From: Bordetella parapertussis
GTDB taxonomy: Bacteria; Pseudomonadota; Gammaproteobacteria; Burkholderiales; SG8-39
Direction of reading: 5' to 3'
DNA: 64,000 nucleotides
Assembly (NCBI GenBank): GCA_945892985.1
Contig: CAMDDU010000015.1
Coordinates: forward strand, 9,017 to 73,016
The position numbers and the translations under genes were made by a program. Below, piece by piece: positions 16,780-64,000 of this stretch (its first letter is position 1; every line of letters begins with the position of its first letter). The notes under the pieces were generated by a model. The model was not told where the DNA came from. It was given only the letters and a program-made list of their open reading frames with translations, and searched no databases.

Positions 16780-16814
16780 CGCAACCCGGGCGACGGCACC
16801 GCAAGGTGCATCGA

Positions 16815-16845: not shown

Positions 16846-16873
16846 CCTATACCCCTGTAGCCGCCAGCCCCGC

Positions 16874-19002: not shown

Positions 19003-19031
19003 ATATTGGGTCGGGCCATCCGCGATTCAAG
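19003..19031 (-). promoter_or_regulatory. candidate sigma-32 heat-shock promoter of htpG
   Basis: The minus strand reads CTTGAA-N14-ACCCAATAT, against the consensus CTTGAAA-N13-14-CCCCATNT. It lies about 140 nt upstream of the htpG ATG. Confidence 0.55.
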
Positions 19032-19127
19032 AGCCGCCGCCAGAGTCTTAGCCACCCTGCGCTACAATACGCAGCCAGCCGCAACGGGCTGTTTTCCCCG
19101 ATTTTTCCGTCAGCCACCAAACTCCGC

Positions 19128-19859
19128 TTGAAGCCAAGCTCGCAATTCGTCTCCGGTGCGAAAGCCACCATCATCGCCATGCCCGGCATCCTGTCCTGGG
19201 GGGTCATCAGCGGCGTGGCCATGGTCGGGGCGGGTCTGACGCCCTTCGCCGCCCTCGCCATGTCGGTGCTGGTTTATGCCGGCGCGAGCCAGCTCGCCGC
19301 GCTGCAACTGATCAGCGCCGGGGCACCGATCGCGCTGGCTTTGTTGGCCGGTTTTGTCATCAACCTGCGCTTCATGTTGTTCAGCCTGTCGCTGTCCTCC
19401 CACCTGCGCCACCTGCCCTGGTTAGGCCGTGCGCTGCACAGCTACGCCTTGTCTGACAACAGCTTTGCCGTTGCCATCAACGCCTTCCACAAGCACCCGA
19501 ATGACCCGCAGCGCCATCAGTACCTGGCCGGCTCCTCGAGCATGGTCTGGATCGCCTGGCAGGTGGGCACCGGCGCGGGCATCGTCCTTGGCGCCAGCGT
19601 GCCGGCAAGCTGGTCGCTCGAATTCACTATCATCCTGACCTTTATCGCGCTGGTGGTGCCGCACATCAAGGATCGCGCCAGCGTGGCCGCCGCCGCCACC
19701 GCCGGCATGGTCGCGCTGGCCACCGCCGGACTGCCCTTTCGCCTCGGCCTGATTGTGTCGGCCGTAGCCGCCATAGGTGCGGGCATGCTGGCCGAACGCG
19801 GCAAGGCCGCGGCCCAGGCAGTAGAAACCAGACACCAGACACCAGACTCTAGACTCTAG
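19128..19859 (+). CDS. azlC: AzlC-family branched-chain amino acid exporter subunit
   Basis: 243 aa, polytopic, with VYAGASQLAALQL typical of AzlC. The last ~10 codons and the stop lie inside a 7-bp tandem repeat. Confidence 0.85.
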   Translation: MKPSSQFVSGAKATIIAMPGILSWGVISGVAMVGAGLTPFAALAMSVLVYAGASQLAALQLISAGAPIALALLAGFVINLRFMLFSLSLSSHLRHLPWLGRALHSYALSDNSFAVAINAFHKHPNDPQRHQYLAGSSSMVWIAWQVGTGAGIVLGASVPASWSLEFTIILTFIALVVPHIKDRASVAAAATAGMVALATAGLPFRLGLIVSAVAAIGAGMLAERGKAAAQAVETRHQTPDSRL

Positions 19860-19875
19860 ACTCTAGACACCAGAC
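19827..19875. repeat. 7-bp tandem repeat, 7 units
   Basis: ACCAGAC x3, TCTAGAC x3, ACCAGAC x1. Contains the azlC stop and ends 1 nt before the azlD ATG. Confidence 0.95.
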
Positions 19876-19876
19876 A

Positions 19877-37819: not shown

Positions 37820-37842
37820 ACTCGGGGCGTTCGAACTGCGCC

Positions 37843-40194
37843 ATGCCGGAGGCAACGGGTACCGGCCTGCACATCGGCCGGCGCGTTCTACGCGTCGAAG
37901 ACGAGCGCCTGCTAAAAGGGATGGGGCAGTACACCGCCGACATCACCTTTGCGCGCCTGGCCCACCTCGCGGTCGTGCGTTCCGACCACGCTTCGGCGGA
38001 AATCATTTCAATCGACACCAGCGCCGCACTGGCCATGCCGGGTGTGCTTGGCGTGTGGACCGGTGGCGATGCCGCCGCCGACTCACTGGGCGGCATACCC
38101 TGGGAAGACCGCCCTCCCCCTTCGGACACAGCGCGCGCGGCCGGACTGCCGCCCGCTGGCAATGCGTCCGTGGCCATGCCGCAACCGGTGCTGGCCCAGC
38201 GCCGCTTACGCTTTCAGGGCGAGGGGGTTGCCATCGTCGTAGCCGAAAGCCATGAACTGGCCCGCGACGCCGCCGAACGTGTCGTCGTGGAGTACGCAGT
38301 CCTCAATGCGGCCGTGCGGCCGGCGGCCCCCGGACCGGCGGTCTGGGAACAGTTCCCGGACAATATCGCTTTCTCATTTTGCTGCGGCGATGCCGCGGCA
38401 ACCACTTCTGCGTTTGCGGGCGCGGCGCGCACCGTCCGCGTGGCGGTGGACGTTCCACGCCTGATTCAGAACCCCATCGAGCCGCGCACCTACGTCGGCG
38501 AGTGGGATGCCGCGAGCGGCCGTTACACACTGCATGCCGCGGCCGGCAAGCCGCAGGCTGTGGGTCGTACCATCGCGCGTGACATTTTCAGGATTGCGCA
38601 AGACCGGGTGCGCGTCATCACGCGCGACGTAGGCGGCGGCTTCGGCTCGAAGAACATCCTCTACCCGGAGGAGGTGCTGGTGTTGTGGGCAGCGCGCAAG
38701 CTCGGCCGGCCCGTGCGCTGGCTGGGCTCGCGCTCCGAGAACTTCCTCACCGATACACAGGCGCGCGACCAGTCGGCAGTGCTCGATCTCGGCTTCGATG
38801 CCGTCGGTCGCATACTCGGGCTGCGCGCGGCGGTCACCAGCAACCTGGGCGCCTACCTCAGCCCGAAGGGCGCGATCCCACCGATCATCGTATCGAAAGT
38901 CCTTACCGGGACCTATGTGGTCCCGGCAGTCGAGCTTGAAGTGAAGGCCTGGTACACCAACACGCCGCCGACCGGCCCCTACCGTGGCGCCGGCACACCC
39001 GAGGCAATATTCATGATCGAGTACGCCATGGACTGCGCGGCGCGAGAACTCGGCATGTCGCCGGCGGAACTTCGCCGCCGCAACCTGATCCCCGCCACCA
39101 CCAAACCGTATTCCACCAGCCTCGGCGTGCACTTTGATTCCTGTGACCTCGCAGCTGCGCTGGTTGCCGCCGAGCAGGCCGCCGACGTTGCCGGGTTTGC
39201 ATCGCGGCGCATACAAAGCGCGGCCCGGGGACGGTTGCGCGGCCTCGGCTACGCCAGCATGATCGAATGGGCGGGCATTGGCATTACGGAGCGGGCCATG
39301 CTCTCCTGCCTGCCTGACGGTACGGTCGTCGCACGTGTGGGCACCATGTCGCAGGGCCAGTCGCACCAGACCGTCTACACCCAGCTCGTCGCCGACCTCC
39401 TGGGCATCACTGCCGCGCGCATCCGGATCGTGCAAGGGGACACCGACGAGATGCCTGATGCCATAGGCACCGGCGCGTCCCGCTCGCTCACCGTCGCCGG
39501 AAGCGCACTGCTTGCCGCAACGGGAAAGCTGATCGAGGCCGGGCGTACCGGCGCCGCCGACCTGCTCGAGGTGTCGGCGGATGACATTTCATTTGCTGAT
39601 GGCCGTTACACGATCAGCGGCACCGACCGCGGAGCCAGCCTGGCGGAAGTGGCCGCCCATGCGATCAAGGCGGGCGCTGACGCGCATTTCGGGCTGTACG
39701 CCGAGGACCGGTTCACGCCCGCCGATTCGACCTGCCCCAACGGCTGTCACATCGCTGAAGTAGAAATCGACCCGGAAACCGGCGTCGTCACGCTGCAGAA
39801 CTACACCATCGTGCAGGACGTCGGACGCGCAATCAATCCAATGGTGGTCGAAGCGCAATTGATGGGGGGCGTCACGCAGGGCATCGGCCAGGCCCTTTTC
39901 GAGCGCGCCGTGTTCGATCCGGAATCAGGGCAATTACTATCCGGCACATTCATGGACTACGCAATGCCGCGTGCCGACGGCGTCCCCGCCTTCACCGTCA
40001 AGCTGCTGGAGGTGCCCAGTCCGCATGCGCCCATGGGCATGAAGTCCTGCGGCGAAATCGGCGCAACCGGCGGGCCGGCGACCACCTTCAATGCGGTAAT
40101 GGATGCGCTCGCAGGCCTCGGCGTTCGCGATCTGCGCATGCCTGCAACACCCGAACGGGTGCTGCAGGCAATACGCAACGCACCGACCCCTTAG
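37843..40194 (+). CDS. xanthine dehydrogenase/CO dehydrogenase-family molybdopterin-binding large subunit (no adjacent FeS/FAD subunits)
   Basis: 783 aa. RVEDERLLKGMGQYTADI N-terminus, GGGFGSK, and C-terminal QDVGRAINP...GGVTQGIGQAL...GEIGATG. Confidence 0.9.
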   Translation: MPEATGTGLHIGRRVLRVEDERLLKGMGQYTADITFARLAHLAVVRSDHASAEIISIDTSAALAMPGVLGVWTGGDAAADSLGGIPWEDRPPPSDTARAAGLPPAGNASVAMPQPVLAQRRLRFQGEGVAIVVAESHELARDAAERVVVEYAVLNAAVRPAAPGPAVWEQFPDNIAFSFCCGDAAATTSAFAGAARTVRVAVDVPRLIQNPIEPRTYVGEWDAASGRYTLHAAAGKPQAVGRTIARDIFRIAQDRVRVITRDVGGGFGSKNILYPEEVLVLWAARKLGRPVRWLGSRSENFLTDTQARDQSAVLDLGFDAVGRILGLRAAVTSNLGAYLSPKGAIPPIIVSKVLTGTYVVPAVELEVKAWYTNTPPTGPYRGAGTPEAIFMIEYAMDCAARELGMSPAELRRRNLIPATTKPYSTSLGVHFDSCDLAAALVAAEQAADVAGFASRRIQSAARGRLRGLGYASMIEWAGIGITERAMLSCLPDGTVVARVGTMSQGQSHQTVYTQLVADLLGITAARIRIVQGDTDEMPDAIGTGASRSLTVAGSALLAATGKLIEAGRTGAADLLEVSADDISFADGRYTISGTDRGASLAEVAAHAIKAGADAHFGLYAEDRFTPADSTCPNGCHIAEVEIDPETGVVTLQNYTIVQDVGRAINPMVVEAQLMGGVTQGIGQALFERAVFDPESGQLLSGTFMDYAMPRADGVPAFTVKLLEVPSPHAPMGMKSCGEIGATGGPATTFNAVMDALAGLGVRDLRMPATPERVLQAIRNAPTP

Positions 40195-45143: not shown

Positions 45144-45991
45144 AATCCCTTGTTCCAGCTGAGCGCCCAGCGGCTGATCCACAGCACCACCAAGTCACTG
45201 AGGAATCCGAGAAAGCCTACGCTCAACATGGCGGCGATGATCACGTCCATCCGCAGGAAGTAATAAGCATCCCACATCGCAAACCCGAGCCCGGATTTAA
45301 CTGCAAGCATTTCAGCCACGATCACCAGCACCCAAGCCAGCCCGATCCCAAGCCGCAAGCCGGTAAAGATGAACGGCAGCGCGGAGGGAATCACCACACG
45401 CAACAAAAGCATGTGCGGGCGTATGCCCAGCATTCTAGCCGCCCGCACCAACAGCTTGGGCGTCCCGGACACGCCGGCCGCCGTGTTGACGACGATCGGA
45501 AAAAACGCCCCGAGTGCAATCAGAAAAAAAGCCGACGCATCGCGAATGCCGAAGAAAATCACCGCGAACGGGACCCATGACGTAATCGGGATGGGACGGA
45601 GCATTTGGATGATCGGGTCGAGCAGGTCCGACACCAGGCGAAACCAGCCGATCAGGGTTCCGAGAAACACGGCCACCACGGCGGCGAAGGCAAACCCGAT
45701 CAGCACCCGGTAGGTGCTGTTGCCGGCGTGCGACGCCCAGGTGCCAATATAGGGATCACCGGTCGGCTTCGCGAAAATCCAGCTGTACAGCGTCTTGCCG
45801 ACCGTCGCGGGCGACGGGACGAAACGCACGTCCACCCAGCCCGCGGTGGACGCCACATGCCAGAGCAGGAGGACGGCGAGAGGCCCGACCAGCCTAACTG
45901 CATTGACCTGCAACCAACTGCCGATGTTTCCCGCCACCAAGAATCCGCCTGACTTCACGCCGCCCGTCGGCATGCTCCGCTCATTCGCCAC
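45140..45991 (-). CDS. ABC transporter permease (NitT/TauT family)
   Basis: 283 aa, polytopic, with an EAA-loop-like ARMLGIRPHMLLLRVVIPSALP. Confidence 0.9.
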   Translation of the reverse strand: MANERSMPTGGVKSGGFLVAGNIGSWLQVNAVRLVGPLAVLLLWHVASTAGWVDVRFVPSPATVGKTLYSWIFAKPTGDPYIGTWASHAGNSTYRVLIGFAFAAVVAVFLGTLIGWFRLVSDLLDPIIQMLRPIPITSWVPFAVIFFGIRDASAFFLIALGAFFPIVVNTAAGVSGTPKLLVRAARMLGIRPHMLLLRVVIPSALPFIFTGLRLGIGLAWVLVIVAEMLAVKSGLGFAMWDAYYFLRMDVIIAAMLSVGFLGFLSDLVVLWISRWALSWNKGL

Positions 45992-46958
45992 CGAGGTCCT
46001 TCTTGGACTTGCCGGTTACCTGCATCAGCAGGCTGTAATCGAAGGTGCGGTCGATCGAGGCGGTCGTGTCGACCTTCGTGATGCCCGCTTCATGGATCAT
46101 CTTGAGGAGGTACTTCGCTTCCTTCTGGTACAGCTTGTAGTCAAGCTTCCCGCGGGGGATGGATTCCTTGACCACCTCGGGCGTCGACCCCGTACCTTTC
46201 TGCGCGACCTCGGCATAGCGGGCCGGGTTGGCATTGAGCGCATCGGTAGACTCGACCAGCGCACGCACCACCGCCAGCACGGCACTGCGGTTCTTCGCGA
46301 GGAAATCAGAATTGACCGCCATGGCGCCATTGATGTGCTTGGTCGGGTTGTCACCGATGTCGAGGCTGCTGTAATAGCCGACCTTGCCGATCGCCGCATC
46401 GGCGTTGTTCGGCTCCCAGAAGACGAACCCATCGATATCGCCTGCGCGCAGCGCTGCGATGACCGGCGGGCCGCCACCGCCAAAGCTGACCGTCTTGATT
46501 TTTGAGAGATCTGCCCCGGCGAGCTTGGCCGTCGCCTTGAACAGCAGTTCGGCATAACTGTTGGGTGCGGTGCCCAAGGTCTTGCCCTCGAGGTCCTTCC
46601 AAGTCTTGGCCTGAACGCCGTTGCGCAATGTCAGGCTCTGCCCACCAGTGAACACGCCCCCGACCACCTTGTGGTTCCTGAAGGCGTTTTCCTCCATCAG
46701 GCCGAGGTTGACATAGCCGAGCACCACGACATCCACCTGGTTGGTGGTGAGCGCCAGTTGCAGGTCTGCATAGCGCCGCAACGGCGTGACTTCCAGGTCG
46801 ACGCCATGCTTCTTGGCGTACTCCTGCATCAGCATCATGTTGGCCTGGTGAATCTGCACGGCATAAGCAAACCGGACCTTCTGCTGCGCCTGCGCGGACG
46901 TGATGCCCGCGAGCAGCGCAAATGCAAGCGCCGCTGAAAACTTCAACATTCTGCCCAT
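45981..46958 (-). CDS. ABC substrate-binding protein (SsuA/TauA/NMT1-like)
   Basis: 325 aa with a signal peptide. Paralogue of 54224..55204. Confidence 0.85.
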   Translation of the reverse strand: MGRMLKFSAALAFALLAGITSAQAQQKVRFAYAVQIHQANMMLMQEYAKKHGVDLEVTPLRRYADLQLALTTNQVDVVVLGYVNLGLMEENAFRNHKVVGGVFTGGQSLTLRNGVQAKTWKDLEGKTLGTAPNSYAELLFKATAKLAGADLSKIKTVSFGGGGPPVIAALRAGDIDGFVFWEPNNADAAIGKVGYYSSLDIGDNPTKHINGAMAVNSDFLAKNRSAVLAVVRALVESTDALNANPARYAEVAQKGTGSTPEVVKESIPRGKLDYKLYQKEAKYLLKMIHEAGITKVDTTASIDRTFDYSLLMQVTGKSKKDLGGE

Positions 46959-51811: not shown

Positions 51812-52828
51812 CTATTGCGGGATAAATTCGTTGGTAAAGTACGTCGATACCGGCTGGCGATTCTTGAGCTCGGCATGCTTTTCCAGCAAATCCAGCGTGG
51901 CAGTCCAATCGGCCTCACTGGTCCAGCCCATGGGCTTGCCGACCGAGCGCGGCGTTTGCGCCAGCTTCAAAGCCCAGCCGAGCGTCTCGGTCAGGAACAC
52001 GCGGTTGGCCTTGGGGGCCGCTTTGAGGGTGTACTCCACCGCCTCGTTCGGGTTCTTGCGGGCATACTCCCATGAACGCACCGTCGCCGCCATGAATCGT
52101 TTCACCAGATCGGGGTTCTGCTTGATGAGATCGTTATGCGCGGCAACCGAGGCACTTACGGTGGAGATGCCATAGTCCACATACGTAATCTGGTCGATGT
52201 TCATTCCGGCCGGTGCGCCAAGCTTTACGCGGTAATAGTCGCCGGTCACATACCCACCCACGGCGTCGACCTGGCCCTGGTAGAGCACCCCAGGCTTGTT
52301 GGCCGGGTTGATGGCAACAACCTTGACCGTTTTGGGGTCGATCTTGTTCGATATGAGCAGCGTATTGAACAAGGCCGTCATCGCTTCGCCTGGCTGCAGG
52401 CCCACCGTCTTGCCCTTGAGGTCGGCTAGCGTCTTGATGCCGGAGGCCGTATTGAAGATGAGGTCGAACGGCGCCTGCTGCACCAGTGTGCCGACCGATC
52501 GGATCGGCAACCCCTGGCCTACGCTCAACGCAAGAACACTACCGTCGATTATGCTGAACTGCTCCGATTTTTGCGCCAGTAACGCGGCGTTGGGCGCGGC
52601 ACCCTTGCCTTCGATGATCTTCAGATCTATGCCGGCATCGCGGTAAAAGCCCAGCGCTTGGCCGAGGAAAAACGGCAGTTGGTCCCCTCCAAATCCCGGA
52701 ATCCACGCCAAGCGCAGCGTGACCTCGTCGCGCGCCGGGGTCTGGGCTTGCGCGAGCGGCGTGAAACATGTGAACAGCGTAAGCGCGGCGATTAGTGCGA
52801 GTGGTACCACAGACAGGCGTAAGCGCAT
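51812..52828 (-). CDS. ABC substrate-binding protein (NMT1/THI5-like)
   Basis: 338 aa. Signal peptide, then LRLAWIPGFGGDQLPFFLGQALGFYRDAGIDLKI, typical of NMT1/ThiY-like binding proteins. Confidence 0.85.
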   Translation of the reverse strand: MRLRLSVVPLALIAALTLFTCFTPLAQAQTPARDEVTLRLAWIPGFGGDQLPFFLGQALGFYRDAGIDLKIIEGKGAAPNAALLAQKSEQFSIIDGSVLALSVGQGLPIRSVGTLVQQAPFDLIFNTASGIKTLADLKGKTVGLQPGEAMTALFNTLLISNKIDPKTVKVVAINPANKPGVLYQGQVDAVGGYVTGDYYRVKLGAPAGMNIDQITYVDYGISTVSASVAAHNDLIKQNPDLVKRFMAATVRSWEYARKNPNEAVEYTLKAAPKANRVFLTETLGWALKLAQTPRSVGKPMGWTSEADWTATLDLLEKHAELKNRQPVSTYFTNEFIPQ

Positions 52829-54223: not shown

Positions 54224-55204
54224 CTACTCTCCTCCCAGTTCACGCCTGGATTTGCCGGTCACTTGCATCAGGAAACTGTAATCAAAAACACGGTCCACAG
54301 CTGCGGTGGTATCAACTTTTGTAATTCCGGCCTCGTGGATGATTTTCAGCAGCGCCTTGGATTCTTTCTGGTAAAGCTTGTAATCGAGCCGGCCGCGAGG
54401 GATCGACTCCTTCACGACTTCGGGCGTTGAGCCGGTACCTTTTTGCGCCACCTCGGCATAGCGCCCGGGATTGGCATTAAGCGCGTCGGTGGCCTCGACC
54501 AGCGCCCTCACCATGGCCAGCACCGCGCTGCGCTTCTTCAACGCAAAATCGGCGTTGACGGCGAGTGCGCCATTAATGTGTCGAGTCGGGTTGTCGCCGA
54601 TATCTAGGCTGCTGTAGTAGCCGTCGCCAGCCAGCGCCGCGTTGGCGTTATTGGGCTCCCAAAACACGAAGCCGTCGATATCGCCGGCGCGCAGTGCGGC
54701 CTGCAGCGGCGGGCCGCCTGGAGGCGCAAAGCTGATGGTCTTTATTTTCGAAACGTCGGCACCGCCGAGTCTGGCCGATACCTTGAACAACAGCTCGGCG
54801 TAGCTGTTAGGCGCCGTTCCCAGCACCTTGCCCTCAAGGTCCTTCCATGTGTTCGCCGTCACGCCCTTGCGAAGCGTCAGGCTTTGGCCGCCAGCAAAAA
54901 CACCGGCGACAATCTTGTGGTTCCTGAATTCCTTCTCCTCCATCAAGCCAACATTTACGTAGCCTAGCACCGCGGCATCCAGTTCGTTGGTGATGAGCGC
55001 GAGCTGGATCGCCGGGTAACCGCGCATGACGATGGTCTCAAGATCCACGCCCTGTTTTTTTGCGTACTCTTGCATCAGCAGCATGTTCGCCGTGTGAATC
55101 TGTACCGGGAAGCCGATGCGGACTTTTTCCTGTGCATGGACTACAGTTATGGTCAGAAAGACACCCGTCAGCGCATTGATGAAACCTGCCATTAATCGCT
55201 TCAT
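54224..55204 (-). CDS. orphan ABC substrate-binding protein (paralogue of 45981..46958)
   Basis: Start at MKRLMAGF. Long identical stretches with the paralogue (WKDLEGK.LGTAPNSYAELLFK, AALRAGDIDGFVFWEPNNA, YAEVAQKGTGSTPEVVKESIPRG). Confidence 0.85.
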   Translation of the reverse strand: MKRLMAGFINALTGVFLTITVVHAQEKVRIGFPVQIHTANMLLMQEYAKKQGVDLETIVMRGYPAIQLALITNELDAAVLGYVNVGLMEEKEFRNHKIVAGVFAGGQSLTLRKGVTANTWKDLEGKVLGTAPNSYAELLFKVSARLGGADVSKIKTISFAPPGGPPLQAALRAGDIDGFVFWEPNNANAALAGDGYYSSLDIGDNPTRHINGALAVNADFALKKRSAVLAMVRALVEATDALNANPGRYAEVAQKGTGSTPEVVKESIPRGRLDYKLYQKESKALLKIIHEAGITKVDTTAAVDRVFDYSFLMQVTGKSRRELGGE

Positions 55205-55246
55205 GTCAATTCTCCTTGGGATATGTGCGAGAAACCTCAACGCGTG

Positions 55247-57149: not shown

Positions 57150-58133
57150 TCATTCATTCAGAATTACGACACGGCCAGTGCTCTTGCGGCTCGCGACCAG
57201 ATCGAGTGCCTCATTCGCGCGTGCAAGTGGATACCGCGCCCCGATCAACATCCTGATTTTCCCAGTGCGCATGTATTCGAGCACCGCATCCCCCGCCGGC
57301 CTGAGTACCCCGGGGCGTGCGTACCGATGACCGCCTGTGCTGTAACCAACAGCCGACCGATTGCCCGCGTGCAGAACGTTGGTCGGGATGCTTCCCGGAA
57401 CGCCGCCGGACATGCCATATACGACGATCCTGCCCCATGGGGCGAGACAGGCAAGACTCAGTTCGGTGACGGCCCCTGCGATCGAATCGAGGATTACGTC
57501 AGCACCCCTGCCTTCGGTGATGTCCATGACCTTGTCGGAGAAATTTTCCGTCTGGTAATTGATGACATGGTCACAACCCATTTCAAGCGCCAATTCGATT
57601 TTCTCCGCAGCGCCGACGGTCCCGATCACGCAACCGGCGCCCAGCAGCTTCGCCAGTTGTACCGTCGTCGTTCCCACCCCGCCGGCGGCCGAATGAACTA
57701 GCACGGTCTCGCCGCGAACGAGGCGTCCTGCCAGCGTCAGCAGGTTGTAGGACGTTACGGCGTTCGTCGGAAACGCCGCACCCGATGCAATGTCGATCTC
57801 CTCGGGCAAGAGCCAGGTGATCGGAGCGGGCGCTATGACAATCTCGGCAAAGGAACCGGTAAGCGCAATAGCCGTCACGCGCTGGCCTTTTCGCACATGG
57901 GACACCCCTGGTCCGACCTCCGTCACAATGCCGACGACATCGTGCCCAGGAATGACAGGCGGCTTGCGCGGCGTGTGGTAACGGCCTTCACGCATTTCGA
58001 TATCTCCGAAGCTTACCGCCGTACCCTCCATGCGTATGGCCACCTGCCCTTCGGCCGGCTTGGGTTCTGGCACATCCTGGAGCACCAGCAAACTGCGCCC
58101 CGCTTCTTGTGTTACCACCATAGCTTTCATCAT
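57150..58133 (-). CDS. MDR-family NAD(P)H:quinone oxidoreductase / zinc-type alcohol dehydrogenase-like protein
   Basis: Start at MMKAMVV. VHSAAGGVGTTTVQLAK cofactor motif. Confidence 0.85.
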   Translation of the reverse strand: MMKAMVVTQEAGRSLLVLQDVPEPKPAEGQVAIRMEGTAVSFGDIEMREGRYHTPRKPPVIPGHDVVGIVTEVGPGVSHVRKGQRVTAIALTGSFAEIVIAPAPITWLLPEEIDIASGAAFPTNAVTSYNLLTLAGRLVRGETVLVHSAAGGVGTTTVQLAKLLGAGCVIGTVGAAEKIELALEMGCDHVINYQTENFSDKVMDITEGRGADVILDSIAGAVTELSLACLAPWGRIVVYGMSGGVPGSIPTNVLHAGNRSAVGYSTGGHRYARPGVLRPAGDAVLEYMRTGKIRMLIGARYPLARANEALDLVASRKSTGRVVILNE

Positions 58134-58164
58134 CAAACCCCTAGCTGTCATGGTTACTGTTGAA

Positions 58165-59388
58165 CTAAAACGAGTCGCCCCCCTCAATGAGTTCGACCAA
58201 TGTATTGAGCAACGCGGTGGCGCCCGTTCCATCGACGAGGCGATGGTCAGCGGTAAGCGTGAGATCGGCAACCGCTCGTATGACTATCTGGCCGGCCTCG
58301 ACCACCGCGACCTCGCGGCGTCGGCCGACCGCGAGGATGTACGACTCCCCGGGATTGATGATGGCGTTAAACCTGTCCGGTCCATTCGCCCCGAGATTGG
58401 AAATCGAGAGCACCGCTCCCTCCATTTCCCCCGGTCGGAGGCGGCCGGCGATTGCAGCAGCCACCAGACGCGATCGCAGCCCTGCCACCTCCTGCACCGA
58501 TCGTTGTTCGGCGTCGGACATTACCGGGACACGGACCCCGCCACTGACCGCAACCACAAGCCCCACGCGTGTCCCGGTTGCCATGCGAATTTCTCCGTCC
58601 CCGTCGGTGCCGCGAGCATGAAAGGTCGCATTCAAATCCGGGTGCGTCACCAGCGCCTTGGCGGCAGCCCGAATCAGAAAATCCGTGATCGAAGGCCGGA
58701 TCGCCGATTCCGAATACGCCACATTCGCCCGGCGCTTGAAATCATCGAACATCGCCAACGACGCCGTCCGGGATACCGTGAACTGCGGAATTGAACGCAC
58801 GCTCATGGTCATTGCGAGAGCGATGGCCCGCCGAATAGGGGACAGCGCCCCGGAGAGGCCGGGCGGTCCGGTTACCGCCTCGACGTCGCACAATTGCAGC
58901 CGACCGCCGGGCCCCGATGCTGCGACCGCATCAAGGTCGATCCCGAGCATGCGCGCCCGCCGTCTGGCAGCCGGGGTTGCTTTGCGCGCCGACGACACGG
59001 GTTGCTTGTTGGAAACGGCGGGCGACCCCGACGAATCGGGCGCAGGCCCGGACGGCTGTGCGACTTCATCCCCAGACGAAGCTGCGGCCGGCCGCCCGCC
59101 TCCTTGTCCCTGCTCAACCGCAATCTCGCCCAGCACCGCACCGACATCGACGGACTCGCCCGCGTTCCGGGAAATCGTCCGGAGAACGCCGTCAACCGGC
59201 GCCTCCACCTCCACGATAGCCTTGTCGGTTTCCACCTCCAGCAAGGGCGTGCCGGCGTCGATTCGTTGCCCTTCAACCGCAAGCCACCGCACCACGGTTG
59301 CGCATTCGGTAACCATGCCCAGCCGCGGCATCAGGAACGGGATGCCCTCCAGTTGTCCTGCTACGATCGTCACCGGGTCCGGGTTCAT
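58165..59388 (-). CDS. 2-oxoacid dehydrogenase E2 (dihydrolipoamide acyltransferase)
   Basis: Lipoyl motif VETDKAIVEV, a subunit-binding domain, and catalytic DHRLVDG. Confidence 0.9.
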   Translation of the reverse strand: MNPDPVTIVAGQLEGIPFLMPRLGMVTECATVVRWLAVEGQRIDAGTPLLEVETDKAIVEVEAPVDGVLRTISRNAGESVDVGAVLGEIAVEQGQGGGRPAAASSGDEVAQPSGPAPDSSGSPAVSNKQPVSSARKATPAARRRARMLGIDLDAVAASGPGGRLQLCDVEAVTGPPGLSGALSPIRRAIALAMTMSVRSIPQFTVSRTASLAMFDDFKRRANVAYSESAIRPSITDFLIRAAAKALVTHPDLNATFHARGTDGDGEIRMATGTRVGLVVAVSGGVRVPVMSDAEQRSVQEVAGLRSRLVAAAIAGRLRPGEMEGAVLSISNLGANGPDRFNAIINPGESYILAVGRRREVAVVEAGQIVIRAVADLTLTADHRLVDGTGATALLNTLVELIEGGDSF

Positions 59389-59390
59389 GG

Positions 59391-60365
59391 CTATCGGAGC
59401 AACTGATCGAGCGCGGCGTCGATCTCGCGATGTCCCGGGAGGACCGCGCTTTCCAGCACAGGGGCGAATGCTATGGGCGCGCTGGCGCAGCCGACCCTGA
59501 TGATTTCCGCATCAAGTTCATCGAAGGCGTCAGTCGCAATTCTCGCGGCAATCTCGGCACCGATTCCGCCGGTCAATACTGCCTCGTGCACGATGGCCAG
59601 CCGGTGTGTCTTGCCGACTGATCGAACGATGGTTGCCATGTCCAGCGGTGCCAGTGTGCGCAAGTCGATTACCTCTATTGATTGCCCCGCCTGCCTGCGG
59701 CGCTCCGCGACCTCCAGCACCGGATGGAGCATGTTTGAATAGGTTACGACGGTGGCATCGGTTCCCTCGCGCACAACGTGCGCCCGGCCGGCCGGAATGA
59801 TCAGATCAGGATCCGGCGGCGATTGCCTCATGCCATAGAGCCGCTTGTGTTCGACGAACACGACCGGATCGTTGAGCCGGATTGCCGCTCGCAGCATCCC
59901 GTAAGCTTCGACCGGGGAGGAAGGCGCCATGACGACCAGCCCCGGAACATGCAACAGCCATGCTTCGAGGCTTTGCGAATGCTGGGCTGCCGCCCCACCG
60001 GCCGCCCCGGCCTGGGTCCGAACCACCATGGGAACGGAGAGCTGCCCGCCCGACATGTGGCGGTACTTTGCCGCCTGGTTTACCAATGCGTCCAGCGCCA
60101 GGGTGAGGAAGTCCATGAACATGATTTCAACCACGGGGCGCATACCGCACAAGCTCGCACCCACGCACATTCCGCATATCGCGGCCTCGCTAATCGGCGT
60201 ATTGCGGACTCGTGAGGTTCCGTGCCGGGCAACCAACCCTTTGGTCGCGCCGAACGGCCCGCCTACTGCCACGTCCTCGCCAATGACGTAGACACCCGGA
60301 TCGCGTGACATTTCCGCGTCAAGGGCGCGCCGGATGGCTTCTATGAATGTAATCTGATCATCCAT
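59391..60365 (-). CDS. TPP-dependent dehydrogenase E1 beta subunit
   Basis: 324 aa. Transketolase-like pyrimidine-binding and C-terminal domains (VRNTPISEAAICGM). Confidence 0.9.
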   Translation of the reverse strand: MDDQITFIEAIRRALDAEMSRDPGVYVIGEDVAVGGPFGATKGLVARHGTSRVRNTPISEAAICGMCVGASLCGMRPVVEIMFMDFLTLALDALVNQAAKYRHMSGGQLSVPMVVRTQAGAAGGAAAQHSQSLEAWLLHVPGLVVMAPSSPVEAYGMLRAAIRLNDPVVFVEHKRLYGMRQSPPDPDLIIPAGRAHVVREGTDATVVTYSNMLHPVLEVAERRRQAGQSIEVIDLRTLAPLDMATIVRSVGKTHRLAIVHEAVLTGGIGAEIAARIATDAFDELDAEIIRVGCASAPIAFAPVLESAVLPGHREIDAALDQLLR

Positions 60366-60368
60366 GCT

Positions 60369-61349
60369 TCAGGCTCCGCTCTCACGTCCGGTCAGATCGC
60401 CAAGCACCTTTTCAAGCACGCGGTCTGCCGCGGGAGACGCCGCCGATACCGCCCTGGCGAGCACTTGATCAAGTTCGTCACGAACGTCGGCCTCAATCCG
60501 TGCCAATGCCGCGTCCTTGACGCCAAGTTCGGTCAAATGCCGGTGCAATCGCAGGATAGGGTCGCGCGCCGCCCAACTGGCCATCTCGGCCTTGTCACGG
60601 TAACTCATCGAATCACCCTCATAGTGTCCCGAAAGCCTGTAGGTGAGGCATTCCAGAAACTGCGGACCGCTCCCGCCCCGGGCTGCCGCGACCATTGCCG
60701 TTGCAGCGGACTGCACTGCCAGCACGTCGTTCCCATCAACGACCGTATTCGCGATGCCGTAAGGTGCACAGAACTCCGAGAGGTGTTTTACAACGCTGTG
60801 TTCCTCTCGGCTTGTAAATTCCGCATAGCCGTTGTTCTCGCAGACAAACAGCATCGGCAGGCGCCAGAGCGCGGCAAGGTTGAGCGTCTCATGGAAAACC
60901 CCGGATCCGCCGGCACCGTCGCCAAAGAATACAACCGCGACCCGCCCCCTTCCCGCTTCGGCCGCCGCCCAGGCGGCACCGGCGCAAAGTGGTATGTTCC
61001 CGCCGACCACGCCGGTGGCGCCAAGAGCACCCCGCTGCGCGTCCACAAGGTGCATGGATCCACCGTAGCCCCCGCACAGGCCGTCCTGCCGCCCAAGTAT
61101 CTCCGTCAAGACGCCGTAAGGGTCGCTGCCCCGCGCGAGAAAGTGCCCGTGGCCGCGATGACTCGAAAAAAGATAGTCACCATCCTCCAGTGCCGCACAG
61201 GTACCGACGGCCACCGCCTCCTGTCCGCTGCATAGATGGACGAATCCGGGCACTTCGCCGGCTTTCGAAAGCCGCGCCACATGCTCTTCAAAGACACGGA
61301 TCAACCACATTTGCCGCAGGTAGCCGCACCCGGAAGTCACTTCTGTCAT
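60369..61349 (-). CDS. TPP-dependent dehydrogenase E1 alpha subunit (acetoin/pyruvate/BCKA type)
   Basis: 326 aa. TPP motif GDGAGGSGVFHETLNLAALWRLPMLFVCENNG, and YRLSGH loop. Confidence 0.9.
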   Translation of the reverse strand: MTEVTSGCGYLRQMWLIRVFEEHVARLSKAGEVPGFVHLCSGQEAVAVGTCAALEDGDYLFSSHRGHGHFLARGSDPYGVLTEILGRQDGLCGGYGGSMHLVDAQRGALGATGVVGGNIPLCAGAAWAAAEAGRGRVAVVFFGDGAGGSGVFHETLNLAALWRLPMLFVCENNGYAEFTSREEHSVVKHLSEFCAPYGIANTVVDGNDVLAVQSAATAMVAAARGGSGPQFLECLTYRLSGHYEGDSMSYRDKAEMASWAARDPILRLHRHLTELGVKDAALARIEADVRDELDQVLARAVSAASPAADRVLEKVLGDLTGRESGA

Positions 61350-62350
61350 GCGCCTACCCCGACTGGACGACCCAGTGTTGCAAGCACGCCCTCGACTATT
61401 TTCTCGACTGTCACGCTTATTTCGCGTTCCAGCCCCTTGTCATAGGGGATGGGAACATCGGCCGTGGCGACCCTCCGCACCGGGGCCTTCAGCGCCGCGA
61501 ATGCCTCCTCGGCAAGTACCGCCGCCACCTCTGCATTCACTCCGAAGCTCTTGTGGCACTCGTCGGCGATGACCGCGTATCCGGTCTTTCTCACCGACGC
61601 CAGCAGCGTCCCCCGGTCAAACGGCGCCAGCGTCCGCAGGTCGATCACTTCGGCCGATATACCGTGGTCCCGTTGCAGCACTTCGGCCGCCTTGATGCTA
61701 CGCGGCACGGTCACGGAATGCGCGATGACCGAAACATCGCGGCCGGGCCTGCAAATGCGTGCGACTCCGACGGGCAGGGGCGCTGCGGAGAGGTCAACGT
61801 CCTCGCTCGAGAGGAGCAGATCCGAATGGGCGAGGAATACCGTCGGATCTTGACTCTCGAGCAGGCACCACTTCATCAGGCCGTACGCGTCGCCGGCCGT
61901 CGCCGGTGTGAGTATCTGCAGCCCGGGTATGTTACCGAGCATCGACTGCAGCCGGTGCGAGTGCTGCGATGATCCGCCGCCGCGAATACCGCCGAGCGCG
62001 TAACAAGTCAAAGGCGCGTTGACGCGGCCGCCAGTGGTGTAGCGGACGTTGGGAGCCTCATTGACGATGGGCGGGAGTCCATGGAGCATGAAGCTTGCAA
62101 TATTGAAGCTGAGCAGGGGCCGGCCACCGGCGAGGGCAACGCCGACGGCCGCACCTGCGAGCCCGAATTCCGCGATCGGCACGCTCATGTATACCCGCGC
62201 GGCGTGTTTCGCCAGCGCAGGCCCGAAGGCCTCATCCTCCTGCACCGCAAAATGCCCGCCAAAACGCGACCCCATTACAACCACACGCGGATTCTCATCG
62301 AGGGCTTCACCTATGGCACGCCCAAGCGCCTGCAGATAAGTCATTTGCAT
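61346..62350 (-). CDS. second, divergent E1 beta subunit
   Basis: Start at MQMTYLQALGRAIGEAL. Transketolase-like fold, clearly diverged from 59391..60365. Confidence 0.85.
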   Translation of the reverse strand: MQMTYLQALGRAIGEALDENPRVVVMGSRFGGHFAVQEDEAFGPALAKHAARVYMSVPIAEFGLAGAAVGVALAGGRPLLSFNIASFMLHGLPPIVNEAPNVRYTTGGRVNAPLTCYALGGIRGGGSSQHSHRLQSMLGNIPGLQILTPATAGDAYGLMKWCLLESQDPTVFLAHSDLLLSSEDVDLSAAPLPVGVARICRPGRDVSVIAHSVTVPRSIKAAEVLQRDHGISAEVIDLRTLAPFDRGTLLASVRKTGYAVIADECHKSFGVNAEVAAVLAEEAFAALKAPVRRVATADVPIPYDKGLEREISVTVEKIVEGVLATLGRPVGVGA

Positions 62351-62352
62351 GA

Positions 62353-63378
62353 TCAGCCCCCCTTCGCCGCAAAAACGTCGCAATACGCCAGATCCCCGGA
62401 CGGATGGGGGCTGCCAATTGCCGATTCCATGGCAGCCTCGATTCGCGCCCTCACCCTCGCATCAATACCGAGAATTGCCTCGCGGCTCAGAACCCCGTCC
62501 GCCAGCAGTTGCCGGACATGGCTCATCAACGGGTCGCAGTGCATGCTCCAATCCCGTACCGCCTCCGGCGGTTCCCCCTCGTTCCATGCCCAGGGCAGAC
62601 TGGTTTCGGCTCCGGCAAGGTGGGGCCAGAAGGTGCGGTTGCCCGGGTAACGGGAAGTGCGGACTTCGACAAACTGTGTTCTGCGCTCCTTCCTCACCCC
62701 ATCCGCTGCGCCTCGCAGGGCGCCGAACAGTGCCTTGACGTCGGCTCCGTCGACGGTCGAACACTTGATGCCAAAGGATGCGGGTATATCCGTCAGCCGT
62801 CGTGCCAGAAACGTCGAGGATTTTGCGGTATCAACACCGCGCATGTCGGCCGGGACGCCGTTGTTCTCGCAAATGCAGAGAAGGGGAACCTGCCAAAGGG
62901 CGGCGAGATTGATTCCCTCGTAGAACGCCCCTTCCTCCAGGACACCATCACCAAAAAAAGCGATGATGATCCCCGCCTGCCCGAACTGCTTGTGCGCCAG
63001 CGCGCTCCCCACGGCCATGGGAACGCTGCATCCCACGAGGGAAGTCGTCCAGGGAATTCCCAGTTCCGGTGCCACCATGTGCAGCGTTCCGCCCTTGCCG
63101 TCGGTGTTGCCGCCAATGCGCCCCAATTGCTCTGCGTACATCCGGCCGGGATCGGCGCCCCGAGCCAGAAGATGGCCGTTGCTGCGATGGTTCGTATAGA
63201 TGACATCCTCGGCGGCCGCGGACGAGCACACCCCGACCGCCGTCGCCTCCTGACCGATGGAAATATGGAAGTGCACCGGCATGATGGACCGCCGATGCAG
63301 TTGCAACATGCCCTCCTCGAAGCGGCGGATCAGCAGCATCCGTTCCAACGCTCCGGCAGTTTGTTCTAGGCTTTGCAT
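62353..63378 (-). CDS. second, divergent E1 alpha subunit
   Basis: Start at MQSLEQ. TPP motif GDGVLEEGAFYEGINLAALWQVPLLCICENNG is intact, but the YRxxGH loop reads SRYPGN and is followed by an insertion. Confidence 0.85.
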   Translation of the reverse strand: MQSLEQTAGALERMLLIRRFEEGMLQLHRRSIMPVHFHISIGQEATAVGVCSSAAAEDVIYTNHRSNGHLLARGADPGRMYAEQLGRIGGNTDGKGGTLHMVAPELGIPWTTSLVGCSVPMAVGSALAHKQFGQAGIIIAFFGDGVLEEGAFYEGINLAALWQVPLLCICENNGVPADMRGVDTAKSSTFLARRLTDIPASFGIKCSTVDGADVKALFGALRGAADGVRKERRTQFVEVRTSRYPGNRTFWPHLAGAETSLPWAWNEGEPPEAVRDWSMHCDPLMSHVRQLLADGVLSREAILGIDARVRARIEAAMESAIGSPHPSGDLAYCDVFAAKGG

Positions 63379-63456
63379 TTGATGCGCCCCTTTGGTCGAA
63401 AACAAGGTTGACCTGCATGATGTGAAATTCTAGAAGCAAGAAAAAATCGCGCGTCC

Positions 63457-64000
63457 CTACTGCGCCTTGCCGATGACAGCGGCCCCTCCCGTGCGCGCAT
63501 CCCGCAACGCCCTCCATACGCGCATTGGCGCAAGCGGCATGTCAATCCAGGAGACCCCCATTGGCCGCAGCGCATCCATCACCGCATTGACAACGCAGGG
63601 TGGCGCGCCGGTCGCCCCGGCTTCGCCAATACCCTTTACACCCAGCGGATTGTCGCCCGGCGGGCCTTCGACAAAGAGGCATTCGATGTCGGGCAGGTCA
63701 TCGGCCCGGGGCAATCCGTAGTCCATGAGGGAACCACTGGTCAACTGCCCCGAATCGGCGTCGTAGCGCACCTCTTCCATAAGGGCCTGGCCGATTCCCT
63801 GCGCCACACCGCCGTGCAACTGCCCTTGAGCCAAAAGCGGATTGACTATGCGTCCGGCATCCTGTGCGACGACGTATCGGCGCAGGGCGACAACGCCTGT
63901 GTCCGGGTCTACCTCGACCTCGCAGGCATGGCATGCCGCGGGAAAGCCCTCGTGATAATTGTCAAAATGTCCGGTTGCCGTGAAACCCGGAACGGCCCGG
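63457..64000 (-). CDS. xanthine dehydrogenase-family molybdopterin-binding subunit, C-terminal part (5' end beyond window)
   Basis: My translation is stop-free from 64000 to the TAG at 63457: ...ACEVEVDPDTGVVALRRYVVAQDAGRIVNPLLAQGQLHGGVAQGIGQAL...GIGEAGATGAPPCVVNAV... Confidence 0.85.
   Translation of the reverse strand, partial: RAVPGFTATGHFDNYHEGFPAACHACEVEVDPDTGVVALRRYVVAQDAGRIVNPLLAQGQLHGGVAQGIGQALMEEVRYDADSGQLTSGSLMDYGLPRADDLPDIECLFVEGPPGDNPLGVKGIGEAGATGAPPCVVNAVMDALRPMGVSWIDMPLAPMRVWRALRDARTGGAAVIGKAQ

What the first reader, a model, noticed from the sequence alone, without database searches (positions are those of the whole stretch)
57150..63405. Two tandem E1 alpha/beta pairs feeding one lipoyl E2, with a quinone-oxidoreductase-like gene and no E3, directly downstream of a Mo-hydroxylase
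Minus-strand order is E1alpha'-E1beta'-E1alpha-E1beta-E2-MDR oxidoreductase, with 1-4 nt spacers or overlaps.

The E2 looks complete: lipoyl VETDKA, a subunit-binding domain and DHRLVDG. Both alpha subunits keep the GDG...NN TPP motif.

The distal pair is strongly diverged. In alpha', the conserved YRxxGH loop, which carries the His used for reductive acylation of lipoamide, reads SRYPGN and is followed by an insertion (TFWPHLAGAETSLPWAWNEGEPPEAV).

No dihydrolipoamide dehydrogenase (E3) gene is in the window.

A single E2 serving two different E1 heterotetramers inside a heterocycle/amide island is not the standard PDH, BCKDH or acetoin-dehydrogenase layout. It may represent TPP-dependent C-C cleavage of two successive diketo or hydroxyketo intermediates.
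Basis: partly seen in the sequence, partly recalled or inferred. Interest (0 to 1): 0.72.

Follow-up and report, generated by a model that had tools for sequence, protein, structure and literature searches.

The report
Tandem E1 pairs, one atypical
The operon really does carry two thiamine-dependent E1 enzyme pairs and one lipoyl E2, but the odd pair belongs to a widespread, unstudied E1 subfamily that has lost the histidine needed to load lipoate, so it probably works without the E2.

Summary
On the minus strand lie a CoxL-type Mo-hydroxylase, alpha', beta', alpha, beta, E2 and an MDR reductase. The E1 and E2 genes are separated by 2-3 nt or overlap by 4 nt. The E2-MDR gap is 31 nt. No E3 lies in the window or in 10 kb upstream.

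Alpha'/beta' is not a decaying duplicate: it is 35% identical to alpha/beta. It belongs to a monophyletic E1 clade, with at least 581 loci in species-representative genomes, almost all MAGs.

All 74 alpha' sequences examined carry xR[WY][PE]G[NS] plus a roughly 12-residue W/P-rich insertion in place of YRxxGH. The TPP motifs, the beta' catalytic Glu and the beta' His are conserved.

A canonical alpha-beta pair sits next to alpha'beta' in 31 of 80 loci. An E2 is present only when that canonical pair is present (10/31 against 0/49).

The closest relatives are alpha'beta'-MDR (Binatia) and alpha'beta'-alpha-beta-MDR, both without an E2. A natural alpha'-beta' fusion protein exists.

My best reading has two parts. 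Alpha-beta-E2 is a lipoyl-dependent dehydrogenase that uses an E3 encoded elsewhere. Alpha'beta', with the MDR, is a lipoyl-independent TPP enzyme in cyclic-amide or N-heterocycle catabolism. The substrate is unknown. I rate this a new variant of a known kind.

The parts
63457..64000 (-). C-terminal part of a CoxL-type molybdenum hydroxylase large subunit. The gene runs off the window end and is 773 aa in the identical public contig L001.
   Evidence: MoCoBD_2 domain. NCBIfam CODH/XDH/glyceraldehyde-DH large-subunit models all score below their cutoffs. The translation is open to the window end. L001 gene map.
62353..63378 (-). alpha': atypical E1 alpha subunit, 341 aa from the ATG at 63378. 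Public gene calls use the ATG at 63339 (328 aa), and a TTG at 63405 is also in frame.
   Evidence: PF00676 E1_dh, 134.8 bits. TIGR03182 scores 210 against a cutoff of 394. It is a member of a monophyletic clade of 74 sequences. AF2 model pLDDT 90 with an E1alpha fold, TM about 0.8 to human PDH/BCKDH E1alpha.
62530..62655 (-). Remodelled active-site loop of alpha', SRYPGNRTFWPHLAGAETSLPWAWNEGEPPEAVRDWSMHCDP. The His of YRxxGH is replaced by Asn and a W/P-rich insertion of about 12 residues follows.
   Evidence: Alignment to human PDHA1. The loop is present in all 120 homologues inspected and all 74 clade members. Clade consensus. Predicted ordered, pLDDT 90-94.
61346..62350 (-). beta': partner of alpha', 334 aa.
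   Evidence: Transket_pyr + Transketolase_C. The TPP-activating Glu (PIAEFG) and the QHS His align with B. stearothermophilus E1beta and are conserved in the 73-member beta' clade. A natural alpha'-beta' fusion exists, P0259.
60369..61349 (-). alpha: canonical-type E1 alpha subunit, 326 aa, with the YRLSGH loop at 60624-60641.
   Evidence: PF00676, 241 bits. TIGR03182 scores 309.8, below the cutoff of 393.85. Its loop His is kept in all 32 partner alphas.
59391..60365 (-). beta: canonical-type E1 beta subunit, 324 aa.
   Evidence: NF006667 scores 339.5, above the cutoff of 321. The partner-beta clade is monophyletic in the NJ tree.
58165..59388 (-). E2 dihydrolipoyl acyltransferase, 407 aa. 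It has a lipoyl domain (VETDKA, 59218-59235), a peripheral-subunit-binding domain and a catalytic domain (DHRLVDG, 58228-58248).
   Evidence: Pfam PF00364, PF02817 and PF00198. The closest solved structures are PDH E2s. Motifs checked.
57150..58133 (-). MDR-superfamily oxidoreductase of the quinone/enoate-reductase (PIG3/Qor) type, 327 aa. It is co-inherited with alpha'beta'.
   Evidence: TIGR02824 scores 218 against a cutoff of 297. The best PDB sequence match is an unnamed 'Oxidoreductase' (9vxk); the best named matches are 2-haloacrylate reductase and Qor. It is 69-74% identical to the MDR that directly follows alpha'beta' in Binatia loci L006-L015 and in L086.

Best explanation
The six genes form one operon that joins two different thiamine-diphosphate (TPP) enzymes.

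**Unit 1, alpha-beta-E2.** This is a conventional lipoyl-dependent 2-oxoacid or acyloin dehydrogenase. It decarboxylates or cleaves its substrate on TPP, reductively acylates the E2 lipoyl-lysine, releases an acyl-CoA, and relies on a dihydrolipoamide dehydrogenase encoded elsewhere.

**Unit 2, alpha'-beta'.** This is a catalytically competent member of a separate, ancient, widespread and uncharacterised E1 clade. Its active-site 'phosphorylation loop' has lost the His used for reductive acylation and has gained a conserved, ordered Trp/Pro-rich insertion. It most likely acts without lipoate. It would do a non-oxidative TPP-dependent C-C cleavage, decarboxylation or ligation on a 2-oxo or 1,2-dicarbonyl intermediate from hydrolytic opening of a cyclic amide or N-heterocycle. 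It would work with the co-inherited NAD(P)H-dependent MDR reductase and hand on, or receive, the intermediate that alpha-beta-E2 oxidises.

**Shown:** gene content, residue pattern, clade structure and co-occurrence statistics.

**Inferred:** lipoate independence, the order of the steps and the substrate class.
For: - **Anatomy and motifs:**
- **Ancient paralogy:** alpha' versus alpha and beta' versus beta are each 35% identical. In NJ trees alpha' (74 sequences) and beta' (73) each form a clade, with no canonical sequence inside either.
- **Loop dichotomy:** 74/74 alpha' have xR[WY][PE]G[NS] plus the insertion, and 32/32 partner alphas keep [YHF]RxxGH.
- **Catalytic competence:** GDG..NN is invariant in the alpha' alignment. 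The beta' Glu and QHS His are conserved. The AF2 model has pLDDT 90 with an ordered loop.
- **Role of the lost His and loop:** the PDB entries 1OLS/1OLX are titled for the role of His291-alpha in reductive acylation. An ordered loop is needed for lipoyl-domain binding (PMC3397410).
- **E2 tracks alpha-beta, not alpha'beta':** 10/31 against 0/49, Fisher p=2.7e-5. With at least 4.5 kb on both sides it is 6/18 against 0/26, p=0.003.
- **Nearest relatives lack an E2:** alpha'beta'-MDR in ten Binatia or related genomes at 66-72% identity, and alpha'beta'-alpha-beta-MDR in L086.
- **Self-contained unit:** a natural alpha'-beta' fusion exists, P0259.
- **Precedents for E1alpha-beta acting without an E2:** AcoAB alone is a carboligase (PMC3744081), and Plm8/Plm9 work without an E2 (PMC4802897).
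- **Catabolic context:** caprolactamase-like HyuA/HyuB lie beside the E1 genes in about 22 of 80 loci. Amidohydrolases, an amidase, a RutB/BiuH-like hydrolase and Mo-hydroxylases lie in the window.
Against: - No biochemical data exist for any member of the clade, and none turned up in the literature searches.
- The beta' His, equivalent to human BCKDH His146-beta', is retained. Some lipoyl chemistry therefore cannot be excluded.
- In L076 and L078 the E2 gene directly follows beta'. In L058 and L059 a free lipoyl-domain ORF follows beta'.
- Two thirds of the alpha-beta-containing loci also lack an E2. Absence in cis is therefore weak evidence of independence.
- The loci are not phylogenetically independent, so the Fisher p-values overstate the support.
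- The NJ trees use few outgroups.
- I could not inspect the model coordinates to see whether the insertion occludes the lipoyl-lysine channel.
Confidence: 0.5

Rival explanations
1. Both E1 heterotetramers dock on the one E2 core and reductively acylate the same lipoyl arm. A single complex therefore oxidises two different 2-oxo or acyloin substrates in sequence.
For: - All genes are translationally coupled in one operon.
- Beta' keeps the second reductive-acylation His and the catalytic Glu.
- The E2 or a lipoyl-domain ORF directly follows beta' in L076, L078, L058 and L059.
Against: - The alpha' loop His is absent in 74/74 clade members, and the loop that forms the lipoyl-domain docking wall is rebuilt.
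- No E2 was found next to alpha'beta' unless alpha-beta was also present (0/49).
- The nearest relatives lack an E2.
Confidence: 0.2
2. Alpha'beta' and alpha-beta assemble into one mixed (alpha-beta)(alpha'-beta') tetramer with two non-equivalent active sites. One site is lipoyl-competent. The other is specialised or regulatory.
For: - The two pairs are directly adjacent in 31 of 80 loci, in either order.
- The partner alpha-beta form their own conserved clade: 65% mean identity across phyla, against 41-43% to reference E1s.
- Most of these loci have no E2.
Against: - Alpha'beta' occurs without alpha-beta in 49 of 80 loci, including ten near-complete Binatia-type genomes at the locus level.
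- A natural alpha'-beta' fusion argues for a self-contained alpha'beta' protomer.
- Seven MAGs carry 2-3 alpha'beta' loci in different contexts.
Confidence: 0.15
3. Alpha'beta' is a catalytically dead or merely structural paralogue, or a decaying duplicate. The operon is functionally an ordinary PDH/acetoin-type E1-E2.
For: - Loss of a catalytic His.
- Low scores against the curated PDH models.
Against: - The ORFs are intact, with GC3 like their neighbours.
- The TPP-binding GDG..NN motif, the beta' Glu and the beta' His are conserved across a clade that spans many phyla.
- The insertion itself is conserved and predicted to be ordered.
- At least 581 loci were found in species-representative genomes.
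Confidence: 0.05

Closest known systems
Heterotetrameric (alpha2beta2) E1 plus E2 of pyruvate / acetoin / branched-chain 2-oxoacid dehydrogenase complexes
   Same: - Same domains and fold.
- Alpha-beta-E2 keep every catalytic motif checked: GDG..NN, the loop His, the beta Glu and His, the lipoyl DKA, the PSBD and DHRxxDG.
- The E2 is closest to PDH E2s.
- Both alphas are closest to the PDH 'y' type: TIGR03182, and PDB human PDHA1 at E=1e-34 for alpha'.
   Different: - Alpha (309.8 against 393.85) and E2 (188 against 445) score below the curated equivalog cutoffs. Only beta passes a subfamily model.
- There is a second, 35%-identical E1 pair whose alpha lacks the loop His.
- No E3 is nearby.
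- An MDR reductase is coupled to the operon.
- The context is amide/N-heterocycle catabolism rather than central metabolism.
Acetoin dehydrogenase system AcoABC(L), including AcoAB acting alone
   Same: - It is a catabolic E1alpha-beta-E2 operon. I recall, without checking here, that in some proteobacteria it has no E3 gene and has an MDR alcohol dehydrogenase downstream.
- AcoAB cleaves a C-C bond of an acyloin on TPP. Without AcoC/AcoL it behaves as a carboligase (PMC3744081).
   Different: - The E2 here has a normal 2-oxoacid_dh catalytic domain. It matches the AcoC model NF011457 only over the lipoyl and linker region, residues 18-171 (81 bits against a cutoff of 307).
- The MDR is of the Qor/PIG3 type, not a butanediol dehydrogenase.
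- No single Aco system is known to carry two E1 pairs.
Stand-alone E1 alpha/beta pairs in natural-product sugar branching (Plm8/Plm9 of paulomycin; the avilamycin and kosinostatin systems)
   Same: These are E1alpha/beta homologues that work without an E2 or E3. They transfer a TPP-bound two-carbon unit to a carbonyl acceptor (PMC4802897). This is a functional precedent for a lipoyl-independent alpha'beta'.
   Different: - They are biosynthetic, actinomycete proteins that act on sugar nucleotides.
- I could not test whether they carry the alpha' loop.
- Alpha'beta' sits in catabolic or transport contexts in Proteobacteria, Binatia, Chloroflexota and others.

Membership tests
2-oxoacid dehydrogenase E1, heterotetrameric alpha/beta type (PF00676 + PF02779/PF02780) | E1_dh domain in the alpha subunit; Transket_pyr + Transketolase_C in the beta subunit | tested here: met
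   Both pairs pass the Pfam gathering scores. The alpha' model has an E1alpha fold, TM about 0.8.
2-oxoacid dehydrogenase E1, heterotetrameric alpha/beta type (PF00676 + PF02779/PF02780) | TPP/Mg-binding GDG...NN motif in alpha, and the TPP-activating Glu in beta | tested here: met
   GDG(143)...ENN(171-173) occurs in alpha and alpha'. It is invariant in the alpha' alignment. The Glu is conserved in beta, beta' and the whole beta' clade.
2-oxoacid dehydrogenase E1, heterotetrameric alpha/beta type (PF00676 + PF02779/PF02780) | Loop His of YRxxGH, used in reductive acylation of lipoamide (human PDH alpha-His263, BCKDH alpha-His291) | tested here: not met
   The feature is met by alpha (YRLSGH) but not by alpha' (SRYPGN). 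It is absent in 74/74 alpha'-clade sequences. The status refers to alpha'.
Pyruvate dehydrogenase complex (NCBIfam equivalogs TIGR03182, NF006667/NF008854, TIGR01349) | Scores at or above the curated cutoffs for E1alpha, E1beta and E2 | tested here: not met
   Alpha scores 309.8 (cutoff 393.85), alpha' 210.1, beta' 224.4 (cutoff 321) and E2 188.4 (cutoff 445). Only beta passes, at 339.5 against 321.
Pyruvate dehydrogenase complex (NCBIfam equivalogs TIGR03182, NF006667/NF008854, TIGR01349) | A dihydrolipoamide dehydrogenase (E3) available to the complex | tested here: inconclusive
   There is no E3 in the 64-kb window or in 10 kb upstream. The rest of the genome could not be searched, and an E3 is commonly shared in trans.
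Acetoin dehydrogenase system AcoABCL | AcoC-type E2 (NF011457) and acoL in the cluster | tested here: not met
   NF011457 matches only residues 18-171 (lipoyl domain and linker), at 81 bits against a cutoff of 307. No E3 is present.
Acetoin dehydrogenase system AcoABCL | Activity on acetoin or methylacetoin | not testable with these tools
   This needs an enzyme assay.
alpha'-type E1 clade (defined here) | xR[WY][PE]G[NS] loop plus a roughly 12-residue W/P-rich insertion, an H-x-H-x-x-IGQE motif, and a cognate beta' encoded immediately downstream | tested here: met
   The window alpha' falls inside the monophyletic clade. It carries the loop. It is followed by beta', as in every locus whose contig allows the check.

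The most novel reading that the evidence does not exclude
Alpha'beta' defines a new functional class of E1-fold TPP enzymes. These would be lipoate-independent C-C lyases, decarboxylases or ligases. They would be recruited repeatedly, often beside ATP-dependent lactamases, Mo-hydroxylases and a canonical E1-E2, to break down ring-opened cyclic amides and N-heterocycles. The tandem-E1 operon would then be a two-step TPP relay in which alpha'beta' makes the substrate that alpha-beta-E2 converts to an acyl-CoA.
Probability: 0.35. Interest if true: 0.75.

Novelty: new variant of a known kind. Interest (0 to 1): 0.6.

Why it matters
2-oxoacid dehydrogenase E1s are textbook enzymes. Their loop His and loop ordering are regarded as essential for handing the acyl group to lipoate.

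This finding points to a large, phylogenetically broad E1 clade that has systematically replaced that loop yet keeps the TPP machinery. Current annotation lumps the clade under 'pyruvate/acetoin dehydrogenase E1'.

If the clade is lipoate-independent, three things follow:
- It would add a new reaction type to the E1 fold.
- It would correct the annotation of hundreds of genomes.
- It would give a handle on unknown steps in lactam and N-heterocycle catabolism in poorly cultured soil and groundwater lineages such as Binatia, Chloroflexota and Burkholderiales.

The test is simple: express two proteins and ask whether they acylate a lipoyl domain.

Tried and rejected
- **Exact-sequence look-up of alpha' with the ATG at 63378.** It found nothing, because public gene calls start at 63339. 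The look-up with alpha worked.
- **Plasmid collection.** It holds no alpha'-type protein. The best hits, Azospirillum at 39.5-41%, have the canonical YRLRGH loop and sit next to a cytochrome c. They were used only as outgroups.
- **First neighbourhood clustering by longest ORF.** It picked antisense ORFs in these high-GC loci. I redid it with a GC3 filter and with tblastn.
- **HyuA/HyuB neighbours as ketone carboxylases.** The idea was that a ketone released by acyloin cleavage would be carboxylated. I rejected it as the leading idea. The proteins match caprolactamase subunits far better than acetophenone-carboxylase subunits, and HyuB has lactamase length.
- **Literature searches.** Searches for the doubled E1, for E1 with hydantoinase, and for E1 with Mo-hydroxylase clusters found no characterisation.
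- **Rfam scan.** No riboswitch, TPP or otherwise, in the window.
- **Promoter and terminator scan.** Nothing found inside the operon.
- **Sizing the clade with the 112-residue loop segment.** This gave only 98 representative clusters at E<=1e-3. That is a lower bound limited by the short query, not a census.
- **Model coordinates.** They could not be inspected, so whether the insertion blocks the lipoyl channel is untested.

Full report
**1. Observation**

The minus strand of 57150-64000 carries these genes, in order:
- the 3' part of a CoxL-type molybdenum-hydroxylase large subunit (63457 to the window end)
- alpha' (62353-63378, E1_dh)
- beta' (61346-62350, Transket_pyr + Transketolase_C)
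- alpha (60369-61349)
- beta (59391-60365)
- an E2 (58165-59388; lipoyl, E3_binding/PSBD and 2-oxoacid_dh domains)
- an MDR oxidoreductase of the PIG3/Qor type (57150-58133)

The junctions are a 2-nt spacer, an ATGA overlap, a 3-nt spacer and a 2-nt spacer. The gap before the MDR is 31 nt.

These are VETDKA, DHRLVDG, GDG...ENN in both alphas, YRLSGH in alpha, and SRYPGN plus the insertion in alpha'.

GC and GC3 are uniform across the genes. No terminator-like or promoter-like site lies inside the block. No Rfam family is present in the window.

No E3 is in the window. No redox-disulfide motif occurs in six frames. A bona fide LpdA from Novosphingobium pCAR3 gave no tblastn hit.

An identical public contig (L001) extends the view 10 kb upstream. 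It shows two 8-oxoguanine-deaminase-like amidohydrolases, an ABC importer and the complete 773-aa CoxL, but no E3 and no CoxM/CoxS.

The source is an uncultured betaproteobacterial MAG (NCBI MEI6300221-25).

**2. The distal pair is not a recent duplicate or a wreck**

Alpha' is 35% identical to alpha, and beta' is 35% identical to beta.

A search with alpha' returned thousands of homologues. All 120 inspected carry the same unusual loop.

A scan of one genome per GTDB species used two alpha'-specific peptide patterns.

The best 80 loci are all MAGs. They come from Binatia, 'Deltaproteobacteria'/Thermodesulfobacteriota, Chloroflexota/Dehalococcoidia, Beta-, Alpha- and Gammaproteobacteria, Verrucomicrobiota, Bacillota and Acidimicrobiia. 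Seven MAGs carry two or three such loci.

In NJ trees the 74 alpha' and the 73 beta' sequences each form a clade with no canonical sequence inside.

The loop dichotomy is absolute in this sample:
- 74/74 alpha' read xR[WY][PE]G[NS] followed by the insertion. The clade consensus is R-W-P-G-S/N-x3-W-P-x-L-x-G-x-x-T-x-L-x-W-A-W.
- 32/32 partner alphas read [YHF]RxxGH.

**3. Alpha'beta' looks catalytically competent**

GDG and NN are invariant in the alpha' alignment.

Beta' aligns with B. stearothermophilus E1beta over the TPP-activating Glu (PIAEFG) and the active-site His (QHS). Both are conserved across the beta' clade.

The AlphaFold model of alpha' has mean pLDDT 90. The insertion (residues 241-282) scores 90-94, so it is predicted to be ordered. 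The model matches human PDH and BCKDH E1alpha at TM about 0.8.

**4. What alpha' has lost**

Alpha' lacks the His that aligns with human PDH alpha-His263. This is equivalent to BCKDH alpha-His291.

The role of that His in reductive acylation is the subject of the PDB entries 1OLS and 1OLX, which were the top structural matches. Ordering of this loop is required for lipoyl-domain binding (PMC3397410).

**5. Comparative architecture**

A tblastn map of the 80 loci shows the following:
- Alpha' and beta' are always adjacent where the contig allows the check.
- A canonical alpha-beta pair lies directly beside them in 31 loci, in either order.
- A complete E2 is adjacent in 10 loci, all of which also have alpha-beta. 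That is 10/31 against 0/49, Fisher p=2.7e-5. With at least 4.5 kb on both sides it is 6/18 against 0/26, p=0.003. The loci are not phylogenetically independent, so these p-values are upper estimates of support.
- Only one locus (L023) has an E3 next to an E2.

The partner alpha-beta form their own conserved clade. Mean identity within it is 65% across phyla, against 41-43% to five reference E1 alphas. The outgroup sampling is thin.

The closest relatives of the window's alpha'beta' (66-72% identity) are ten Binatia-type loci. In these, alpha'beta' is followed directly by an MDR 69-71% identical to the window's. They have no alpha-beta and no E2.

The closest overall relative is metagenomic contig L086. 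It reads alpha'beta'-alpha-beta-MDR, at 68/50/70/78/74% identity, and has no E2.

So the MDR travels with alpha'beta', and the E2 travels with alpha-beta.

A 683-aa natural alpha'-beta' fusion (P0259) carries the RWPGS loop. It argues that alpha'beta' is a self-contained protomer.

**6. Context**

Clustering of the neighbouring ORFs, with Pfam and NCBIfam annotation of representatives, found these recurrent neighbours:

| Neighbour | Loci out of 80 |
|---|---|
| HyuB, caprolactamase-like ATP-dependent lactamase subunit, often immediately flanking the E1 genes | 22 |
| HyuA, the other lactamase subunit | 14 |
| NMT1 binding proteins | 17 |
| TAXI (NMT1_3) binding proteins | 11 |
| TctC binding proteins | 11 |
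| SDR | 16 |
| MDR | 19 |
| F420/FMN luciferase-like oxidoreductases | 10 |
| DMFase-like amidases | 10 |
| Amidohydro_2 | 8 |

CoxL-type hydroxylases also recur.

The window's own island (about 29-64 kb) holds the following:
- amidohydrolases, an amidase and an M20 peptidase
- a GntR regulator
- two orphan CoxL genes
- a CoA-transferase III and an enoyl-CoA hydratase
- a RutB/BiuH-like cysteine hydrolase, an Amidohydro_2, a DLH and a CMD
- three NMT1/SsuA-type ABC systems

The association of alpha'beta' with cyclic-amide and N-heterocycle catabolism is therefore general, not peculiar to this window.

**7. Mechanism**

My best-supported reading has confidence about 0.5.

Alpha-beta-E2 is an ordinary lipoyl-dependent dehydrogenase module that uses an E3 encoded in trans.

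Alpha'beta' is a lipoyl-independent TPP enzyme that carries out C-C cleavage, decarboxylation or ligation. It acts with the MDR reductase on a ring-opened 2-oxo or dicarbonyl intermediate, either upstream or downstream of alpha-beta-E2.

Precedents exist for E1alpha-beta chemistry without an E2:
- B. subtilis AcoAB expressed without AcoC/AcoL acts as a carboligase and no longer degrades acetoin (PMC3744081).
- Plm8/Plm9 attach a pyruvate-derived C2 unit to keto-sugars (PMC4802897).

The rivals, with my confidence in each, are:
- A mixed alpha-beta/alpha'-beta' tetramer forms (0.15).
- Alpha'beta' is an inactive paralogue (0.05).

Points against the best reading:
- Beta' keeps the second His.
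- In L076 and L078 the E2 follows beta' directly.
- In L058 and L059 a free lipoyl-domain ORF follows beta' directly.
- Most alpha-beta-containing loci also lack an E2 in cis.

**8. Comparison with known systems**

The proteins belong to the heterotetrameric E1 / E2 superfamily and are nearest to the PDH type.

The cluster is not a bona fide PDH. Alpha and E2 score below the equivalog cutoffs.

It is not an Aco system. The E2 is not of the AcoC type, there is no acoL, and the MDR is Qor-like rather than a butanediol dehydrogenase.

NCBIfam has no model specific to the alpha' clade. Public names are generic, such as 'TPP-dependent dehydrogenase E1 component subunit alpha' or 'acetoin:DCPIP oxidoreductase'.

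Four literature searches found no study of this clade or of the tandem-E1 operon. That shows absence from the searchable library, not proof of absence.

**9. Verdict**

The finding is not a one-off oddity of this island. It is one instance of a conserved, cross-phylum operon type built around an uncharacterised E1 subfamily.

I rate it a new variant of a known kind, with interest 0.6. The substrate and the lipoate independence remain inferences that a simple in-vitro experiment would settle.

Noticed in passing
P0259, not in the window: A 683-aa protein is a natural fusion of an alpha'-type E1 alpha (RWPGS loop) with a beta'-type subunit.
   Followed up: partly
L059:11994-12230 and L058:11976-12212: A free-standing lipoyl-domain ORF of about 78 aa (EIDTDKVS) lies directly after beta' in the Chloroflexi alpha-beta-alpha'-beta' locus L059, which has no E2 catalytic domain. 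L058 gives a tblastn lipoyl-domain match at the same position. This may be a separate lipoyl carrier.
   Followed up: partly
window 37747-40194 (+) and 63457-64000 (-): There are two CoxL-type Mo-hydroxylase large subunits. Both match glyceraldehyde-DH-alpha and CODH models below their cutoffs. No 2Fe-2S (CoxS) or FAD (CoxM) subunit gene lies next to either of them.
   Followed up: partly
window 45981-46958, 51812-52828, 54224-55240 (all -): There are three NMT1/SsuA-family periplasmic binding proteins. The first and third are close paralogues. Each sits beside ABC-importer genes or lies within the island. This suggests uptake of several related small N-compounds.
   Followed up: no
L088 (Azospirillum lipoferum 4B plasmid AZO_p3) 11971-14441: A canonical E1 alpha-beta pair (YRLRGH loop) is followed by a cytochrome c gene, with no E2 and next to an ABC importer. 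This may be an E1 that passes electrons to a cytochrome.
   Followed up: no
window 7628-7757; also 10970-11027 and 19814-19876: Short tandem repeats are present. CCTTCACT occurs 16 times inside ORF 7609-8187, where it encodes a repetitive FTPSxLHS peptide. There are also 7/14-bp and 14-bp arrays.
   Followed up: no
L006-L015 (Binatia and related chromosomes), about 6600-15500 in each locus: A conserved block reads TAXI-TRAP transporter (fused DctM plus an NMT1_3 binding protein), alpha'beta', MDR, then an N,N-dimethylformamidase-like protein. It is syntenic across ten genomes.
   Followed up: partly
L087 (ENA ERZ25039504 contig_701) 2641-19488: Here alpha'beta' stands alone. It is surrounded by CoxSML, a kynurenine-formamidase-like cyclase, two Amdase-family proteins, an oxalyl-CoA-decarboxylase-like TPP enzyme, a family III CoA-transferase and an ADP-forming acyl-CoA synthetase. 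This is another N-heterocycle-type context.
   Followed up: no
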